DNA of 64,000 bases from Candidatus Magasanikbacteria bacterium RIFCSPHIGHO2_01_FULL_33_34 (GTDB lineage: Bacteria; Patescibacteriota; Patescibacteriia; Magasanikbacterales; UBA922). The stretch is taken from NCBI GenBank assembly GCA_001782825.1, contig MFPS01000008.1, forward strand, positions 137,012-201,011, given 5' to 3'. The position numbers and the translations under genes were made by a program. Positions 722 to 51,356 of this stretch are shown here, piece after piece. Numbering within the stretch: the stretch's first letter is position 1; the number at the start of each line of letters is the position of its first letter. The notes beneath the pieces were generated by a model that worked only from the letters and a program-made list of their open reading frames with translations, was not told the origin of the DNA and made no database searches.

Positions 722-752
722 TAGGATTACTTTTATACACATGTCAATTAAC

Positions 753-9748: not shown

Positions 9749-10999
9749 ATGAAGCAATTTAACTTCAAAACAATTAATTTACCAAATACGCCAGGCATTT
9801 ATCTCTTTTATTATAACCAAGAGCTGATTTATGTTGGTAAAGCTACCTCTTTAAAAAGTCGAGTAAAAAGTTATTTTGCAAAGAATAAAAAAAATGTCCG
9901 TCCAATTGAACAAATGATTCATCAAGTAAATAATATTAAACACATCAAAACTGAATCAGTTTTGGAGGCAATATTATTGGAAGGGGAATACATAAAAAAT
10001 TTTAGGCCAAAGTATAATGTATTGTGGAAGGATGATAAAAGTTGGAATTATATTGTGATTACTAAAGATATTTTTCCAAAAGTTTTAACTTTGCGTCAAC
10101 ACGAGAGAAAAAATATTTCTAAAATTCAAGAAAAGAAGCAATATTGGCATATTTTTGGACCATATCCTGGACTTAAAACAAAGGAAGCAATGAAAATTTT
10201 GTCTAGGCTTTTTTATATTTCTCATTGTGAGCCCAAGGCAAAAAGACCTTGTCTTTATTATGAAATGGGACAGTGTTTGGGTGTTTGTAGTGGTGATATA
10301 GACAATGTTCAGTATAAAGATAAAGTAATCAAACCATTGATTATGTTTTTGCAGGGAAATAAAACTGGTTTAATTAAAAATCTGCAAAAAGAAATGAAGC
10401 TAAATTCTAGTTTAAATAATTTTGAAGAGGCTGGTAGAATTCGTGATCAAATAAAGGCTTTACAGAGAATCCAAGATATTAGTCTTATAAATAAATCATT
10501 TTTGGAAGAAAATATAAACAAGAAAAGAGAAATTAGAATTGAAGGTTATGATATTTCTAATTTGGGTAAAAATGATAAAGTGGGGAGTATGGTAGTATTT
10601 GATGCTGATGGTCCGATCAAGGCAGATTATAGAAAATTCAATATCAAATCAGTTGAAGGACAAAGTGATGTAGATTGTTTGGCAGAAGTTTTGGAGCGTC
10701 GTCTAGGTCATATTGAGTGGCCAATGCCTGATATTTTTCTTATAGATGGTGGTAAGCCACAAGTAAATAAAACTAAAACAATCTTAAAAAAATTAAATAT
10801 TGATATCCCAATAGTTGGTATTGCTAAAGGTCCTAAACGGGATAAAAATGAGTTTTTTGTGAATTATGATAATCAGTTATTTTTGAATTGGGTTGTTAGT
10901 AATAAAAATCTTTTGATACAGGTTAGAGACGAGGCGCATAGATTTGCTATTAATTTTAATCGGAGCAAAAGAAAAATAAAAAAAACAAAAAAGCATTAA
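9749..10999 (+). CDS. uvrC: Excinuclease ABC subunit C-like, short form lacking C-terminal HhH domain
   Basis: N-terminal GIY-YIG (GIYLFYY...YVGKA), UVR motif (EEAGRIRDQIKALQRI), RNase-H-like endonuclease segment (EGYDISN); only 416 aa. Confidence 0.8.
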   Translation: MKQFNFKTINLPNTPGIYLFYYNQELIYVGKATSLKSRVKSYFAKNKKNVRPIEQMIHQVNNIKHIKTESVLEAILLEGEYIKNFRPKYNVLWKDDKSWNYIVITKDIFPKVLTLRQHERKNISKIQEKKQYWHIFGPYPGLKTKEAMKILSRLFYISHCEPKAKRPCLYYEMGQCLGVCSGDIDNVQYKDKVIKPLIMFLQGNKTGLIKNLQKEMKLNSSLNNFEEAGRIRDQIKALQRIQDISLINKSFLEENINKKREIRIEGYDISNLGKNDKVGSMVVFDADGPIKADYRKFNIKSVEGQSDVDCLAEVLERRLGHIEWPMPDIFLIDGGKPQVNKTKTILKKLNIDIPIVGIAKGPKRDKNEFFVNYDNQLFLNWVVSNKNLLIQVRDEAHRFAINFNRSKRKIKKTKKH

Positions 11000-11013
11000 T
11001 AAATGCTTTTTTG
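10987..11013. terminator. Bidirectional rho-independent terminator hairpin (AAAAAGCATT-AATA-AATGCTTTTT) flanked by A-run and T-run
   Basis: Perfect 10-bp stem with 4-nt loop immediately after the uvrC stop; serves plus-strand uvrC and the minus-strand small ORF. Confidence 0.6.
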
Positions 11014-11034
11014 CTTGGAGGCTAGTATATAATC

Positions 11035-11124
11035 TTACTCACATACACAACCACAATCTGTGCAAGATTCGCATGTATTACATGCTAGTTCTGATGCTTC
11101 CATACCACATTGTGAACATTCCAT
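11035..11124 (-). CDS. Small ORF encoding a 29-aa cysteine-rich peptide MECSQCGMEASELACNTCESCTDCGCVCE (8 Cys)
   Basis: Manually translated from the minus strand; followed on the minus strand by the terminator hairpin at 10987-11013 and a T-run; candidate -35/-10 upstream (TTGTTT-18-TATACT); no clear Shine-Dalgarno. Confidence 0.4.
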   Translation of the reverse strand: MECSQCGMEASELACNTCESCTDCGCVCE

Positions 11125-11298
11125 AGTATTGAATTAAATTTAAATATTTAAACTAAATAAAGTATAGCAAAAGTTTATATAAATAAACAAGAGAATTGTA
11201 CTGTGGATATTTTTGTTATTTCTTTGGCTTTAATTTATTTGTTTTGGATATGTCTATGTGGTAATATATAACATATTAATGTTTTTAAAATAAGTATT

Positions 11299-11664
11299 AT
11301 GGCAAAGAAAATTCTTGTTGCAGAGGATGAAAAACCAATGGCTAGGGCTTTGGAATTAAAATTAAATAATTCTGGTTTTGAAACCACTGTGGTTCATGAT
11401 GGGGATCAAGCGATTAAAGCTCTTTTGAAAGAAAAGTATGATCTGCTTTTGCTTGATTTAATTATGCCTGTAAAAGATGGTTTTGTTGTTTTGGAAGAAA
11501 TAAAAAAAGAAAAAATTTCTGTCCCTGTAATTGTTTCTACCAATTTGAGTCAAGATGAAGATGCAAAAAAAGCAAAAGATTTGGGAGCGGTAGATTATTT
11601 TGTTAAGTCAGATACTTCAATAAGTAAAGTGGTGGAATATATAAAAAGAGTTGTTGGTGTATAA
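11299..11664 (+). CDS. Single-domain response regulator (CheY-like receiver)
   Basis: Receiver motifs: acidic pair EDE near N-terminus, phospho-acceptor D in LLLLDLIMP, conserved K; no output domain (121 aa). Confidence 0.85.
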   Translation: MAKKILVAEDEKPMARALELKLNNSGFETTVVHDGDQAIKALLKEKYDLLLLDLIMPVKDGFVVLEEIKKEKISVPVIVSTNLSQDEDAKKAKDLGAVDYFVKSDTSISKVVEYIKRVVGV

Positions 11665-11665
11665 T

Positions 11666-12034
11666 TTAACCAATCATTTCTTTTATTACTTCTATAATTG
11701 ATTGAAATCGTGTATTACTTTTTATAAAGTATTTGTTTACACCACTATCAATCGCTTCTTGTATATCTGATTTTTGACCTAGGTTTGATATTGCTATAAT
11801 GGGGGTATTTTTTGATTTTGGGTCTTGTCTTATTTCACGGGTTGCATCAAATCCATTTCCGTCTTTAAGCATAATATCCATTATGATTAAATCTGGCTTG
11901 TGTTCTTTGGTCAATTTGGCAGCTTCAGTTGCTATTGGTGTAGAAATTACTTTATATCCCGCTTCAGTCAAAAGATGATCATATAGTTTATATGAGAATT
12001 TGTCGTCTTCAACTACAAGAATTTTTTTTGGCAT
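11666..12034 (-). CDS. Single-domain response regulator (CheY-like receiver)
   Basis: VEDDKF, DLIIMDIMLKDGNGF, 122 aa, no output domain; immediately downstream of the histidine kinase on the same strand. Confidence 0.85.
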   Translation of the reverse strand: MPKKILVVEDDKFSYKLYDHLLTEAGYKVISTPIATEAAKLTKEHKPDLIIMDIMLKDGNGFDATREIRQDPKSKNTPIIAISNLGQKSDIQEAIDSGVNKYFIKSNTRFQSIIEVIKEMIG

Positions 12035-12035
12035 A

Positions 12036-13115
12036 TTAATTGTATGAATTTAGTTCTAAATAAAATGTGACAGTTTTGTTGGGTGTATTTTTGAACCAGA
12101 TTTTTCCATTGTTTAATATAGTTAATTCTCGACTAGTATATAGACCCAATCCAGTCCCTTCATTTTGCCTTTCTTCGGCTTCTTTTGTTCTAAAAAATTT
12201 AGCAAAAATTAATTTCTCTTTATCCTTAGGGATTTGTAGTCCTTTGTTTTGACATGAAAAAATAATATTTTTTCTATTTTTTTTAATATTTAGGACTACT
12301 TTTGTTTTTTGATCTCCATATCTGAGAGCATTTTCAATCAAATTTTGGATTATGGTATGCAAATGACTATCATCAGCTTTTACATACCATTCTTTTTTTA
12401 AGGTAGGGTTTAATTCTATAGTTATTCTTTGAGCTTTTGCAAAAAATTTTAAATCTTTTAATACATCATTTATTGTTTTGTTTAAAGAAATTTTTTGAAA
12501 ATCTGGTTTTATTTTTTTGTTTTCTAAACGAGAAATATTCAAGAGATTATTTATAAGCCTGTTCATAGATTGTAAGCTTTCATAGGCGTCAGATAAATAT
12601 TCTGTTTGTTTGACTGTCAGTGGGCCAGGTTTTTTGGTCAAAAGATATTCTGTGACCCATAAAAGATTTCCAATCGGACTGCGTAGATTGTGACTAGCAT
12701 TGTGGGCAAAGTCTTCATGATATTCTTCATGTTCTTTTGCTTTGGTTATATCGCGTATTATGATAATTGCGCCAATTATTTTGTTAGAGTCTTTTAGTGG
12801 AGAAGTAGTGATATTAGTCCATATTCTAGTTCCGTCTTGTTTAATGAATTGTCTTTTTTCGTCTTTTATACTTTTTTTGTATTTGATTGACCTATAAAAG
12901 GCGGCATTTTTTTTATCAATGACTTCTCCCATTTCTCCTATGGCACCTAAAAACACTAGACAGACTTGGCCTTCCATAGCATCTTTACTCTTGTAGCCTA
13001 GCATATCACATATGGCTTTATTGGTATTTTTTATAATTCCTTTTCTATCAACAATCATGATACCGTCCCCAATAGAATCAATCAGTATCTGTTGGTCTAT
13101 ATTTTTTTTTGTCAT
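12036..13115 (-). CDS. Cytoplasmic PAS-domain sensor histidine kinase
   Basis: N-terminal PAS-like region, H-box HNASHNLRSPIGNL, HATPase G-boxes (GTGLGLYTSRE); no transmembrane segment. Confidence 0.85.
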   Translation of the reverse strand: MTKKNIDQQILIDSIGDGIMIVDRKGIIKNTNKAICDMLGYKSKDAMEGQVCLVFLGAIGEMGEVIDKKNAAFYRSIKYKKSIKDEKRQFIKQDGTRIWTNITTSPLKDSNKIIGAIIIIRDITKAKEHEEYHEDFAHNASHNLRSPIGNLLWVTEYLLTKKPGPLTVKQTEYLSDAYESLQSMNRLINNLLNISRLENKKIKPDFQKISLNKTINDVLKDLKFFAKAQRITIELNPTLKKEWYVKADDSHLHTIIQNLIENALRYGDQKTKVVLNIKKNRKNIIFSCQNKGLQIPKDKEKLIFAKFFRTKEAEERQNEGTGLGLYTSRELTILNNGKIWFKNTPNKTVTFYLELNSYN

Positions 13116-20879: not shown

Positions 20880-20950
20880 ATAATTATAGTAAAAATAGTA
20901 TATATTGTGGATATTGAGGTTAATTAAATTAGCTTTAATAATATATATTA

Positions 20951-34236: not shown

Positions 34237-34328
34237 TAATAATAAAGAGTTCATTATTGGACTTTTTTATTATCCACAGGTTTTAAAGTATCTGATTATG
34301 ATGCTATACTTCTAAAATATATACCATT

Positions 34329-49311: not shown

Positions 49312-49365
49312 TTAAATACATTCCACAGCTTATTAATTTGTGTTATACTATAATTATAATAACTG

Positions 49366-50625
49366 TTGTTTATTGACTATAGCATGAAAAAAATAATATT
49401 AATCACAATTTGTATTGTTTTAGGTTTGATAATACAGCCTTATTTTGTCTATTCAGCCGAAGATAATGACACAAATTCAGAAATAGAATTACTAAATGAA
49501 AAGATTGCTGAAAAGAAAAGTAAAATTAAGAAACTTGAAGAAAGTATAGAACAAGTAAAAAAGGATATAAACTCAAAGAGATTAGAGGCAACATCACTCA
49601 AAAATCAAATATACATATTAGACAATAGAACAACTCAAATTGAGCTTGATATTGAAGCCACCAAAGAAAAATTAGATACTCTTACACTAGAAATAAAAGC
49701 ACTTGAATTTAAAATAGATTCAAAAGAAGAAGACATCAGCAAGCAAAAAATAATGCTGGCAGAATTGATCAGAACTATAAACTACGAATCAGATAAAAAT
49801 TATTTAGAAATAATAGCAGCTTATGATAATTTTTCTGATTTTTATAACAGAGTACAATATTTACAAGTAGTTGAAGAAGATTTGGGTAAAAGTGCAAAAA
49901 CATTGCGATTGGCAAAAGTTGATCTTGAAGAAAAAAAAGATATAACAGAAACAAGAAAAAAATCTTATGAAGATCTAAAAATTGAACTTGATGAAAAAAT
50001 GGATAGTTATCAAGAACAAATATTTAATAAAGAAAATTTATTATTTCAAACAAAATCTTCAGAAAACGCCTTCCAAACATTGTTGAATAGCTTAAGAACT
50101 CAGTATCAAGCTATTGAAGCCGAAATCACTAGTGTTGAGAGAGAAGTTAGAAACAAACTAGAAGCTCAAAAAAAGTTTACAAGTGAAAGTGATAAAAATT
50201 TTGATGGACTTTTTTCATGGCCATCACAAAGTAGATATGTGACAGCTTATTTCCATGATCCAGAATATCCATATAGACATGTTTTTGAGCATAATGCTAT
50301 TGATATACGGTCTGGACAGGGGACACCTGTTAGAGCAGCAGCGTCTGGATATATTGGTAAGGCAAGGGTTTGTAGCGCATCTTCATGTTATGCATATATC
50401 ATGCTTTTACATTCTGATAATTTTTCAACCTTATACGGACATCTATCTAAAATCGTTGTTTCAGAAGAACAATTTGTAACAAGAGGGGATATTATTGGGT
50501 ATAGTGGTGGAACACCAGGGACTGTTGGTGCTGGACCATTTGTAACGGGCCCTCATCTACATTTTGAAATTAGAAAAAATGGCATACCAGTTAATCCTTT
50601 GAACTATCTTGTAAAAGATTGGTAG
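49366..50625 (+). CDS. M23-family peptidoglycan endopeptidase with N-terminal coiled coil (EnvC-like)
   Basis: Signal peptide, about 250-aa coiled coil, C-terminal HxxxD...HLHFE M23 motifs. Confidence 0.85.
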   Translation: MFIDYSMKKIILITICIVLGLIIQPYFVYSAEDNDTNSEIELLNEKIAEKKSKIKKLEESIEQVKKDINSKRLEATSLKNQIYILDNRTTQIELDIEATKEKLDTLTLEIKALEFKIDSKEEDISKQKIMLAELIRTINYESDKNYLEIIAAYDNFSDFYNRVQYLQVVEEDLGKSAKTLRLAKVDLEEKKDITETRKKSYEDLKIELDEKMDSYQEQIFNKENLLFQTKSSENAFQTLLNSLRTQYQAIEAEITSVEREVRNKLEAQKKFTSESDKNFDGLFSWPSQSRYVTAYFHDPEYPYRHVFEHNAIDIRSGQGTPVRAAASGYIGKARVCSASSCYAYIMLLHSDNFSTLYGHLSKIVVSEEQFVTRGDIIGYSGGTPGTVGAGPFVTGPHLHFEIRKNGIPVNPLNYLVKDW

Positions 50626-51019: not shown

Positions 51020-51046
51020 AAAAAGCACGGCAAGCCGTGCTTTTTG
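51020..51046. terminator. Orphan terminator-like hairpin (AAAAAGCACGG-CAAG-CCGTGCTTTTT) in a long non-coding region, followed by two more stable hairpins (51046-51075, 51081-51101)
   Basis: Read from sequence; no annotated ORF ends here. Confidence 0.45.
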
Positions 51047-51356
51047 TTCGAGAGTCTAGCCGAAGCTTGACTCTCTAAGTGTAAGCGTACGAGACGCTTA
51101 CAAAAATAATTATATTATAATATATAATTTTATACAAATAATAATTGTGGATAAAATATTATTAATAATTTAATTGTGTAAATATATAGAAAATAAGTAG
51201 TATATATTTGAGCCCAAAGACTTATTATAGAGGACTTGTTCTGGTGTTGTGTATAAATCACATTGTTATACCTGTTTATATATAGTATAATCTAACTGCG
51301 TATAATGCACCTTATGTGAAGTCGTCTTATATACTTAAATTATATACACTATATAT

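What the first reader, a model, noticed from the sequence alone, without database searches (positions are those of the whole stretch)
11035..11124. Unannotated 29-aa, 8-cysteine small ORF with its own terminator
The minus strand encodes MECSQCGMEASELACNTCESCTDCGCVCE, with 8 Cys arranged as CxxC ... CxxCxxCxxCxCxC. Eight Cys codons in 29 is far above expectation for this AT-rich genome. The local stretch is visibly less AT-rich than its flanks. The ORF is followed on its own strand by a perfect hairpin plus T-run (10987-11013, shared bidirectionally with uvrC). A plausible -35/-10 pair lies upstream. The pattern fits a metallothionein-like or Zn/Cu-binding peptide, or a Cys-rich RiPP precursor (SCIFF-like spacing), although no radical-SAM maturase is adjacent. 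A copper ATPase and copper/thiol-handling genes lie nearby. The weakness is the absence of an obvious Shine-Dalgarno.
Basis: seen in the sequence. Interest (0 to 1): 0.55.

Follow-up and report, generated by a model that had tools for sequence, protein, structure and literature searches.

The report
Conserved eight-cysteine microprotein gene beside uvrC
A 29-codon gene in an uncultured groundwater bacterium (Candidatus Magasanikbacteria) is real and under strong purifying selection; it encodes a very acidic peptide with eight invariant cysteines, matches no known family and most likely binds metal, which remains untested.

Summary
Window 11035-11124 (-) encodes MECSQCGMEASELACNTCESCTDCGCVCE. 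It has its own promoter and a bidirectional terminator shared with uvrC.

I found five further variants (28-32 aa) at the orthologous place in relatives whose UvrC is 65-83% identical. All eight Cys are invariant. All 27 compared third codon positions vary, against 9 second positions, and mean pN/pS is 0.26. No variant has a frame disruption. The promoter is conserved in all six: box ATAT[CA]CACAG, a -35 hexamer, and an extended -10 TGnTATAMT. The missing Shine-Dalgarno is not a weakness, because only 4 of 51 genes in the window have one.

The peptide matches nothing in Pfam, NCBIfam, PHROGs, PDB or 1.84 billion representative proteins. No ORF in the 64 kb carries a radical-SAM motif, and no neighbour in six genomes is a maturase, so the SCIFF/RiPP reading is not supported.

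Best reading: a stand-alone, strongly acidic, metal-thiolate microprotein (metallothionein-like or a double Cys4 knuckle). It may belong to a thiol/metal-stress regulon, since the same upstream box precedes the CopA-like ATPase, ccdA and a glutaredoxin. Metal binding itself is inferred, not shown. This is a new orphan family of a known general kind, of moderate interest.

The parts
11201..11210 (-). Conserved upstream box ATATCCACAG (family consensus ATAT[CA]CACAG). It ends 10-11 nt 5' of the -35 hexamer. It is probably a regulator site or promoter-associated element.
   Evidence: The box is present in all six family members, with 30-31 nt to the extended -10 in the five promoters the scan measured cleanly. 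TATCCACA has 9 hits in the window, and 4 of them fall in the 7.2% of the window that is intergenic.
11185..11190 (-). -35 hexamer TTGTTT
   Evidence: TTG is invariant across relatives, which read TTGTTT, TTGCAT, TTGCGT, TTGCCT and TTGTCA.
11161..11169 (-). Extended -10, TGCTATACT (hexamer TATACT at 11166-11161), 18 nt after the -35
   Evidence: TGnTATAMT is conserved in all six loci.
11125..11154 (-). Inferred 5' UTR of about 30 nt, AT-rich, without a Shine-Dalgarno. The transcription start is inferred, not mapped.
   Evidence: Only 4 of 36 columns are invariant here, against 50 of 84 in the ORF. The lack of an SD is the norm in this genome: 4 of 51 genes have one.
11035..11124 (-). Microprotein gene: 29 codons plus TAA, encoding MECSQCGMEASELACNTCESCTDCGCVCE. 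Cys pattern is CxxC-x8-CxxCxxCxxCxCxC. There are six acidic and no basic residues.
   Evidence: Sequence. Five orthologous variants keep all 8 Cys. Third codon positions vary in 27 of 27 codons, second positions in 9 of 27, and mean pN/pS is 0.26. Antisense frames are not conserved.
10973..11016 (.). Bidirectional intrinsic terminator shared with uvrC: stem 10983-11016, then a T-run on the minus strand down to about 10973. The left arm is made of the last uvrC codons.
   Evidence: One search found 1 site where 0.1 is expected. Hairpins with different sequences occupy the same place in L015, L017, L226 and L288, with energies of -13.5 to -20.6 kcal/mol. L287 has none; there the stop lies about 7 nt from uvrC.
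9749..10999 (+). uvrC (416 aa), the convergent neighbour. It served as the synteny anchor and is not shown to be functionally linked.
   Evidence: GIY-YIG, UVR, UvrC_M and UvrC_RNaseH domains.

Best explanation
This is a stand-alone, independently transcribed gene for a 28-32 residue cytoplasmic microprotein. The family is restricted, as far as can be seen, to one subclade of Candidatus Magasanikbacteria (Candidate Phyla Radiation).

**Shown.**
- The gene is real, and selection acts on the amino-acid sequence.
- All eight cysteines are invariant, as are L13 and G25. Position 23 is always acidic (D or E).
- The peptide has 5-10 acidic residues and no Lys or Arg.
- It has its own extended -10 promoter with a conserved upstream box, and usually its own terminator.
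- It needs no neighbouring gene.

**Inferred.** The eight thiolates bind metal. One arrangement is two Cys4 sites: an N-terminal CxxC(G)...CxxC knuckle pair plus the C-terminal CxxCxCxC. The other is one small metal-thiolate cluster of the kind seen in short fungal Cu-metallothioneins. Either way the peptide would sequester or buffer soft metal ions (Zn, Cu(I), Cd, possibly Fe). It would be expressed together with thiol- and metal-handling genes that carry the same upstream box: the CopA-like ATPase, ccdA and a glutaredoxin.
For: **Gene reality.**
- Six distinct variants sit at the orthologous place: window, L015, L017/L018, L226/L285, L287 and L288. Their UvrC is 65-83% identical to the window's.
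- Synonymous sites are near saturation (mean pS 0.82) while mean pN is 0.21. All 27 third positions vary, against 9 second positions. TGT and TGC swap freely at every Cys codon.
- Antisense frames are poorly conserved or interrupted by stops.
- In the four-sequence alignment the ORF (50 of 84 invariant columns) and the promoter (29 of 53) are islands of conservation. The 5' UTR has 4 of 36.
- Terminator hairpins are kept while their sequence turns over.
- No Rfam family matches the region.

**Independence.** The gene on the promoter side differs between genomes: a response regulator, glutaredoxins, a PAS protein, or a response-regulator/histidine-kinase operon.

**Metal-binding inference.**
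- Cys makes up 25-29% of the residues, in CxxC and CxC motifs, with 0-1 aromatic residues.
- The N-terminal 'M-x-C-S-x-C-G-A-E-V' resembles zinc-ribbon or rubredoxin knuckles (my own knowledge).
- A single-sequence AlphaFold2 model gives a small beta fold with mean pLDDT 76.5.

**Regulon hint.**
- The variant box TATACACA lies upstream of the CopA-like ATPase (HMA domain) with the same geometry as the peptide promoter: box, 11 nt, -35, 17-18 nt, -10.
- TATCCACAGGTT precedes ccdA in the window and a glutaredoxin at the syntenic place in L289.
- In L015 the box lies between the peptide gene and two divergent glutaredoxin genes.
Against: - No metal-binding data exist.
- No sequence or fold similarity to any metallothionein, zinc finger, rubredoxin or ferredoxin was found.
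- An all-acidic peptide carrying anionic metal-thiolate centres would have an unusually high negative charge.
- No metal-sensing repressor gene is adjacent.
- The box-based regulon is post hoc. The 9-mer is not over-represented overall (about 3 expected and 5 seen outside the peptide promoters). Its distance to the -10 varies from 15 to 34 nt among the other promoters.
- The gene has been lost from the uvrC locus in several close lineages (L016, L019-L022, L286), so it is dispensable.
- The AlphaFold2 model was built without an alignment or metals and has pTM 0.31.
Confidence: 0.55

Rival explanations
1. Regulatory zinc-finger microprotein. The Cys bind structural Zn only, and the folded, very acidic mini-domain acts by binding a partner protein. 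The partner could be the adjacent receiver-only response regulators or PAS histidine kinase, or UvrC. Alternatively it acts as a nucleic-acid mimic rather than a metal buffer.
For: A CxxCG-type first knuckle is present in 3 of 6 variants, and the AlphaFold2 model is a small beta fold. The gene sits directly after a histidine-kinase/response-regulator operon in L017 and L288, and near one in the window. Zinc-finger microproteins with regulatory phenotypes are known in Haloferax (PMC6562870, PMC11241148). The non-Cys positions L13, A/V14 and G25, and the acidic positions, are also conserved.
Against: Eight Cys in 29 residues is far denser than a one-zinc finger needs. Linkage to the two-component system is lost in L015 and L287. 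No partner is identifiable.
Confidence: 0.2
2. RiPP precursor (ranthipeptide, sactipeptide or lanthipeptide-like). Its Cys would be cross-linked to Thr, Ser, Asp or Glu by a maturase encoded elsewhere in the genome.
For: The core alternates Cys with Thr, Ser, Asp and Glu (C-[NDE]-T-C-E-S-C-T-D-C), which are acceptor residues in ranthipeptides (PMC8326336). The precursor is short.
Against: There is no SCIFF or other RiPP-precursor HMM hit. There is no leader, since the first Cys is at residue 3. No ORF of 100 aa or more in the 64 kb has a CxxxCxxC motif. None of the neighbours in six genomes is a maturase, transporter or protease. T17 and D23 are replaced by Glu in L288.
Confidence: 0.08
3. Minimal iron-sulfur or rubredoxin-like redox peptide. 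The CxxCxxCxxC stretch plus other Cys would ligate Fe or [4Fe-4S] cluster(s), giving a tiny acidic electron carrier.
For: Acidic composition is typical of ferredoxins and rubredoxins (my own knowledge). The CxxCxxC core resembles the ferredoxin motif. The host is an anaerobic fermenter that encodes pyruvate:ferredoxin oxidoreductase beta.
Against: The spacing is CxxCxxCxxC without the CxxxCP ending. No Fer4 or rubredoxin Pfam hit appeared even at E<=10. At 29 aa the peptide is about half the size of the smallest known 2x[4Fe-4S] ferredoxins (my own knowledge).
Confidence: 0.1
4. Not a functional protein. The ORF would be a chance ORF inside a conserved small or antisense RNA, or a Cys-rich leader peptide acting in cis as a cysteine-sensing attenuator.
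For: The transcript converges on uvrC, and in L287 no terminator separates them, so antisense overlap is possible. Polycysteine leader ORFs exist in mycobacteria (my own knowledge).
Against: The codon-position pattern and pN/pS of 0.26 show selection on the amino-acid sequence. No gene follows in the same orientation, so there is nothing to attenuate. No Rfam match was found. The 5' UTR is not conserved.
Confidence: 0.04

Closest known systems
Short Cu(I)/Zn metallothioneins. Bacterial examples are SmtA/BmtA and MymT. The 25-aa Neurospora crassa Cu-metallothionein is recalled from my own knowledge.
   Same: Very small size, about 28% Cys, CxC and CxxC motifs (including a DCGC[SV]C stretch), few aromatic residues, and a stand-alone gene. 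Bacterial metallothioneins are few and functionally little studied (PMC7387436).
   Different: No sequence homology: no Pfam metallothionein family hit at E<=10. There is no His ligand. Composition is all-acidic, without Lys. No divergent SmtB-type repressor is present. Metal binding is untested.
Zinc-finger microproteins of Haloferax volcanii (C(P)XCG proteins)
   Same: Proteins under 70 aa built around CxxC knuckles. Genome annotation often overlooks such small proteins. Functions are regulatory or stress-related (PMC6562870, PMC11241148).
   Different: Those have two or four C(P)XCG motifs in 40-70 aa. This peptide has eight Cys in 28-32 aa, with a CxxCxCxC tail and no Pro. It is bacterial (CPR), and no homology is detected.
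SCIFF / ranthipeptide precursors (TIGR03973)
   Same: A short Cys-rich peptide with Thr, Asp and Glu near the Cys.
   Different: SCIFF peptides are about 45 aa with six Cys in the C-terminal half behind a leader (PMC8326336), encoded next to an rSAM-SPASM maturase (my own knowledge). Here there is no HMM hit, no leader and no maturase.
Unannotated C-terminal Cys module of proteins on viral contigs (L161 7135-7653 -, L162 6325-6696 +)
   Same: CxxC-x11-CxxCxxCxxCGCxC followed by an acidic tail. This is nearly the same Cys skeleton, and it shares 'ECGCxC'.
   Different: It is part of 123-172 aa proteins, the linker is His-rich, and it is an orphan. The similarity is not statistically detectable and may be convergent.

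Membership tests
SCIFF / ranthipeptide precursor (TIGR03973) | Match to the family HMM | tested here: not met
   The NCBIfam scan at E<=10 returned 0 families.
SCIFF / ranthipeptide precursor (TIGR03973) | About 45 residues, with six Cys clustered in the C-terminal half behind a leader | tested here: not met
   The peptides are 28-32 aa with 8 Cys, the first at residue 3. Family definition is taken from PMC8326336.
SCIFF / ranthipeptide precursor (TIGR03973) | Adjacent radical-SAM/SPASM maturase | tested here: not met
   No CxxxCxxC motif occurs in any ORF of 100 aa or more in the 64-kb window. Neighbours in six genomes are uvrC, response regulators, a histidine kinase, glutaredoxins, a PAS protein and DUF5671. 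The rest of the genome was not available.
SCIFF / ranthipeptide precursor (TIGR03973) | Thioether cross-links in the mature product | not testable with these tools
   This needs mass spectrometry of the native peptide.
Metallothionein (operational class; bacterial families SmtA/BmtA and MymT) | Homology to a known metallothionein sequence family | tested here: not met
   Pfam gave 0 hits at E<=10. A PDB profile search gave 0 hits at E<=10.
Metallothionein (operational class; bacterial families SmtA/BmtA and MymT) | Low molecular weight, very high Cys content in CxC/CxxC motifs, few aromatic residues | tested here: met
   Mass is 2.9-3.5 kDa. Each peptide has 8 Cys (25-29%) in the pattern CxxC...CxxCxxCxxCxCxC and 0-1 aromatic residues.
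Metallothionein (operational class; bacterial families SmtA/BmtA and MymT) | Binds several metal ions in thiolate clusters | not testable with these tools
   This needs metal titration, ESI-MS or 113Cd NMR.
Metallothionein (operational class; bacterial families SmtA/BmtA and MymT) | Metal-responsive expression (for example a divergent SmtB/ArsR repressor) | tested here: inconclusive
   No adjacent regulator gene was found. A conserved upstream box is shared with the CopA-like ATPase promoter at the same geometry. That link is post hoc.
Zinc-ribbon / C(P)XCG zinc-finger microproteins | Two CxxC(G) knuckles forming one Cys4 zinc site in a beta-hairpin fold | tested here: inconclusive
   C3xxC6 is followed by Gly in 3 of 6 variants, and C15xxC18 is present. 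The AlphaFold2 model shows short strands with pLDDT 76.5. Foldseek found no match in PDB or BFVD.
Ferredoxin-type [4Fe-4S] binding motif | CxxCxxCxxxCP motif or a Fer4 HMM match | tested here: not met
   The spacing is CxxCxxCxxC without Pro. No Fer4 family appeared in Pfam at E<=10.
Cys-rich leader-peptide attenuator | Short ORF upstream of, and co-oriented with, the regulated genes | tested here: not met
   A terminator and the convergent uvrC follow the ORF. There is no co-oriented downstream gene.

The most novel reading that the evidence does not exclude
CPR bacteria of this clade may use a gene-encoded, phytochelatin-like, all-acidic (Glu/Asp plus Cys) 3-kDa peptide as their soft-metal and thiol buffer, or as a minimal Fe-S or Fe(Cys)4 carrier. 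It would be switched on with CopA, CcdA and glutaredoxin through a previously unrecognised TATCCACAG promoter box. That would be a new metallothionein-type family, and a new regulon, in organisms where neither has been described.
Probability: 0.15. Interest if true: 0.7.

Novelty: new variant of a known kind. Interest (0 to 1): 0.45.

Why it matters
- It adds a verified, selection-supported microprotein gene to a genome of only about 1.2 Mb, where every retained gene is informative. GenBank annotation and all protein-family libraries miss it.
- If it binds metal, it would be one of the smallest bacterial metallothionein-like proteins and the first described for the Candidate Phyla Radiation. 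A 29-residue peptide can be made by chemical synthesis, so this is directly testable.
- It shows that DNA-level synteny searches can recover small-protein families that are invisible to protein databases. Three of the other variants were looked up as proteins, and none is in a collection of 15 billion.
- The conserved promoter box gives a starting point for defining a regulon in organisms that cannot be cultured.

Tried and rejected
**Protein-level searches with the peptide**
- A doubled peptide found nothing.
- An exhaustive HMMER search of 1.84 billion representatives found only the peptide itself, at E 3e-10.
- Exact look-up of three other variants showed they are not in the collection.

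**Family, structure and other libraries**
- Pfam, NCBIfam, PHROGs and a PDB profile search gave no hits.
- tblastn against phages and plasmids gave only E=7 noise.

**Collection scans**
- The genome-contig scan with UvrC returned only relatives at 29-42% identity, none with the ORF.
- The viral-contig scan with the peptide alignment found nothing.
- The bare 8-Cys DNA skeleton is swamped by TG-microsatellite 'poly-Cys' junk.
- My refined skeleton was clean on the loci already held. That pattern choice spent the single metagenome scan, so the family's true range is under-sampled.

**The viral C-terminal module.** A search with this module (A4) found no homologues.

**Ideas about the upstream box that I considered and dropped**
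- A LexA/SOS box. It ends in ACAG next to uvr genes, but the left half is not CTGT and there is no dyad.
- A CopY 'TACAnnTGTA' box. It is palindromic only in L017 and L287 and is not conserved.

**Antisense coding.** One antisense register is open in all six variants, but its translation is not conserved.

Full report
**1. The observation**

The minus strand of window 11035-11124 reads ATG GAA TGT ... GAG TAA and translates to MECSQCGMEASELACNTCESCTDCGCVCE. An in-frame TAA lies three codons upstream of the ATG, so the product cannot be longer than 29 residues.

The ORF has the densest cysteine content of any 29-residue window in the six-frame translation. Non-coding frames elsewhere reach 7 Cys, so the count alone would not prove anything. 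GC is 0.389 in the ORF, 0.178 in the upstream spacer and 0.316 for the window.

A 15-pair hairpin with a T-run lies at 11016-10983 on the minus strand; 0.1 such sites are expected in shuffles. It overlaps the last uvrC codons, so it is a shared bidirectional terminator. No Rfam family matches the region.

Exact look-ups identify the source as a Candidatus Magasanikbacteria (CPR) MAG. The UvrC is OGH58920.1, and the longest contig carrying it is 1,167,158 bases. The peptide has no NCBI accession, but JGI, Logan and ENA gene callers called it on 19 contigs.

**2. Is it a gene?**

The protein tools do not accept 29 residues directly, so I used synteny. UvrC homologues were collected, and the contigs encoding them were fetched. 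One metagenome pattern scan added L226.

Five further variants lie on the strand opposite uvrC, just downstream of it:

| Locus | Peptide | UvrC identity to window |
|---|---|---|
| L015 | MICSQCDMEASDLACDTCESCTDCGCVC | 83% |
| L017 = L018 | MTCSQCYMEVAELACDTCESCGDCGCVCS | 73% |
| L226 = L285 | MFCAQCEMDVAELACDTCQACTDCGCVCE | 65% |
| L287 | MVCSYCGAEVEELACETCQSCEDCGCSCEEEE | 67% |
| L288 | MICSNCGAEVEELVCDECHACEECGCTCED | 67% |

In L288 a DUF5671 gene is inserted between uvrC and the peptide gene.

- All eight Cys are invariant, while TGT and TGC interchange at every Cys position.
- Over 27 shared codons, the third position varies in 27, the first in 13 and the second in 9.
- Mean pS is 0.82 (near saturation) and mean pN is 0.21, giving pN/pS of 0.26. 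An earlier four-sequence estimate gave dN/dS of 0.09-0.18.
- There are no frameshifts or internal stops. Antisense frames are interrupted or not conserved.
- In the four-sequence DNA alignment the ORF has 50 of 84 invariant columns and the promoter 29 of 53, against 4 of 36 in the 5' UTR.

That criterion is not met. The gene is real.

**3. Anatomy of the transcription unit**

All six loci share the same layout:
- a box ATAT[CA]CACAG (window 11201-11210);
- 10-11 nt later a -35 hexamer TTGnnn (11190-11185);
- 17-18 nt later an extended -10 TGnTATAMT (11169-11161);
- an unconserved AT-rich leader of about 30-65 nt, without a Shine-Dalgarno.

The missing Shine-Dalgarno is normal here. Only 4 of 51 genes in the window have GGAG, GAGG or AGGA upstream.

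Four of the five relatives keep a terminator hairpin of unrelated sequence at the same place. In L287 the stop codon lies about 7 nt from uvrC, with no hairpin.

The gene on the promoter side differs between genomes: a response regulator in the window, two glutaredoxins in L015, a response-regulator/histidine-kinase operon in L017 and L288, and a PAS protein in L287. The unit is therefore autonomous.

A UvrC neighbour-joining tree places carriers in both halves of the clade, with non-carriers among them: L016, L019-L022 and L286. The outgroup L289 has no copy within the 10 kb searched on either side of uvrC. In L016 the box survives 7 nt from the uvrC stop while the rest of the cassette is gone, which looks like a deletion. 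The gene is thus ancestral to this subclade and has been lost from this locus repeatedly, at least there.

**4. What it is not**

- **No known family.** Pfam, NCBIfam and PHROGs gave no hit at permissive thresholds. A PDB profile search gave none. The 1.84 billion representative proteins returned only the peptide itself. Phage and plasmid tblastn gave only noise.
- **Not SCIFF-like.** SCIFF peptides are about 45 aa with six Cys in the C-terminal half (PMC8326336) and are encoded next to an rSAM-SPASM maturase (my own knowledge). Here there is no HMM match and no leader. No ORF of 100 aa or more in the 64 kb has a CxxxCxxC motif. No maturase-like neighbour appears in any genome.
- **Not a leader-peptide attenuator.** Nothing follows the ORF in the same orientation.

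**5. Most likely mechanism**

Shown: the peptide is 2.9-3.5 kDa, 25-29% Cys, with 5-10 Asp/Glu and no Lys or Arg. The pattern is CxxC-x8-CxxCxxCxxCxCxC. L13 and G25 are invariant, residue 14 is Ala or Val, and residue 23 is always acidic.

Inferred: selection that keeps eight thiols in 29 residues of a cytoplasmic peptide is best explained by metal ligation. Two arrangements are possible:
- two Cys4 sites, with the N-terminal 'MxCSxCGAEV' resembling zinc-ribbon or rubredoxin knuckles (my own knowledge);
- one metal-thiolate cluster, as in very short Cu-metallothioneins, which contain similar DCGC stretches (my own knowledge).

A single-sequence AlphaFold2 model has mean pLDDT 76.5 and shows short beta strands. 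It matches nothing in PDB or BFVD.

A regulatory hint comes from the box. TATCCACA has 9 hits in the window, and 4 of them fall in the 7.2% that is intergenic.
- It occurs before ccdA/DsbD_TM at 34271.
- The identical 12-mer TATCCACAGGTT occurs before a glutaredoxin at the syntenic position in L289.
- In L015 it lies between the peptide gene and the divergent glutaredoxin genes.
- The variant TATACACA lies before the CopA-like HMA-domain ATPase, with the same box-to-promoter geometry as the peptide.

This fits co-expression with thiol- and metal-handling genes. It is post hoc, the spacing varies elsewhere, and the 9-mer is not over-represented overall. I rate 'metal-binding or metal-buffering microprotein' at about 0.55. 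That it is a translated, selected gene I rate above 0.9.

**6. Rivals**

| Rival | Confidence | Main evidence |
|---|---|---|
| Structural-zinc regulatory microprotein acting on a partner | 0.2 | Haloferax precedents in PMC6562870 and PMC11241148; adjacency to a two-component system in some genomes but not all |
| Fe or Fe-S mini redox peptide | 0.1 | Acidic composition and a CxxCxxC core; wrong spacing, no Fer4 hit |
| RiPP precursor with a distant maturase | 0.08 | See section 4 |
| Non-coding RNA or attenuator | 0.04 | Contradicted by the codon pattern |

**7. Comparison and novelty**

Functionally the closest kinds are bacterial and fungal metallothioneins and zinc-finger microproteins. 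By sequence it belongs to none of them. It is an orphan family that protein databases essentially do not contain: three of the other variants were looked up as exact sequences and none is in the collection.

I class it as a new variant of a known kind, namely Cys-rich metal-binding microproteins. Its unusual features are extreme smallness, an all-acidic composition and restriction to a CPR lineage. Interest is moderate (0.45). The gene is solidly real and cheap to test, but the function is inferred.

**8. Limits**

- The single metagenome scan was largely wasted on TG-repeat junk, and the genome scan reached only distant UvrC relatives. The distribution is therefore under-sampled.
- Only 64 kb of the host genome could be inspected for maturases or regulators.
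- No expression or biochemical data were available.

Noticed in passing
window 734-741(+), 20906-20913(-), 34271-34279(+), 49322-49328(+), 51146-51153(-); L289 16669-16677(+); L016 4237-4245(-): The box TAT[CA]CACA(G) is enriched in intergenic DNA: 4 of 9 TATCCACA hits fall in the 7.2% of the window that is intergenic. It precedes the CopA-like ATPase (same geometry as the peptide promoter), ccdA/DsbD_TM, an ORF starting at 49366, a candidate sRNA, and, at the syntenic place in L289, a glutaredoxin. It may be a regulator site or a lineage-specific promoter element.
   Followed up: partly
window ~51020-51107 (-): Candidate small RNA of about 85 nt in a 730-bp gap with no ORF of 100 aa or more. 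It has a promoter (TATCCACAA box, TATAAT at 51115-51110), three hairpins, and a last hairpin that is an intrinsic terminator (AAAAAGCACGGcttgCCGTGCTTTTT). There is no Rfam family at gathering score; the best weak hit is BSnc120 at E 0.014.
   Followed up: partly
L161 7135-7653(-) and L162 6325-6696(+) (IMG/VR viral contigs); also L163 5830-7545(-): Viral-contig proteins of 172 and 123 aa end in CxxC-LHH(L/V)DNxDHER-CxxCDGCxECGCxC followed by an acidic tail. This is nearly the same Cys skeleton as the microprotein. They have no Pfam or PHROG hit, and the word-index search found no homologue. This could be an undescribed zinc module or convergence.
   Followed up: partly
whole window (51 gene starts): Only 4 of 51 genes have a GGAG, GAGG or AGGA Shine-Dalgarno within 20 nt upstream. 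Translation initiation in this organism is essentially SD-independent, with AT-rich leaders.
   Followed up: yes
L016 4231-4312: In a close relative (UvrC 74% identical) the microprotein cassette is missing, but its upstream box TATCCACAG remains 7 nt from the uvrC stop, just after the terminator of the neighbouring PNP_UDP_1 gene. This looks like the footprint of a clean deletion.
   Followed up: partly
L289 16069-16230 (+): A 53-aa called gene, rich in Cys and His (MTHYVCTGGCGGVSETPGTCQAETCPLHEHDLKECNCEDGKHDLP...), has no precomputed Pfam family on record. It lies about 0.5 kb upstream of a glutaredoxin gene and about 1.6 kb upstream of an Rrf2/cysteine-desulfurase/NifU cluster. It is another small, possibly metal-binding protein in a related genome.
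   Followed up: no
window 9749-10999 (+) and its homologues: UvrC in this clade is short (395-446 aa). It shows GIY-YIG, UVR, UvrC_M and RNaseH-like domains but no C-terminal helix-hairpin-helix domain hit. UniRef labels it 'Excinuclease cho'. The uvrB, uvrA and uvrC genes are loosely clustered, and the last uvrC codons form one arm of the shared terminator.
   Followed up: no
window 11299-11664(+), 11666-12034(-), 12036-13115(-): Two receiver-only response regulators (121 and 122 aa, no output domain) and a PAS histidine kinase flank the microprotein promoter. The order uvrC, microprotein, response regulator, histidine kinase recurs in L017 and L288.
   Followed up: partly
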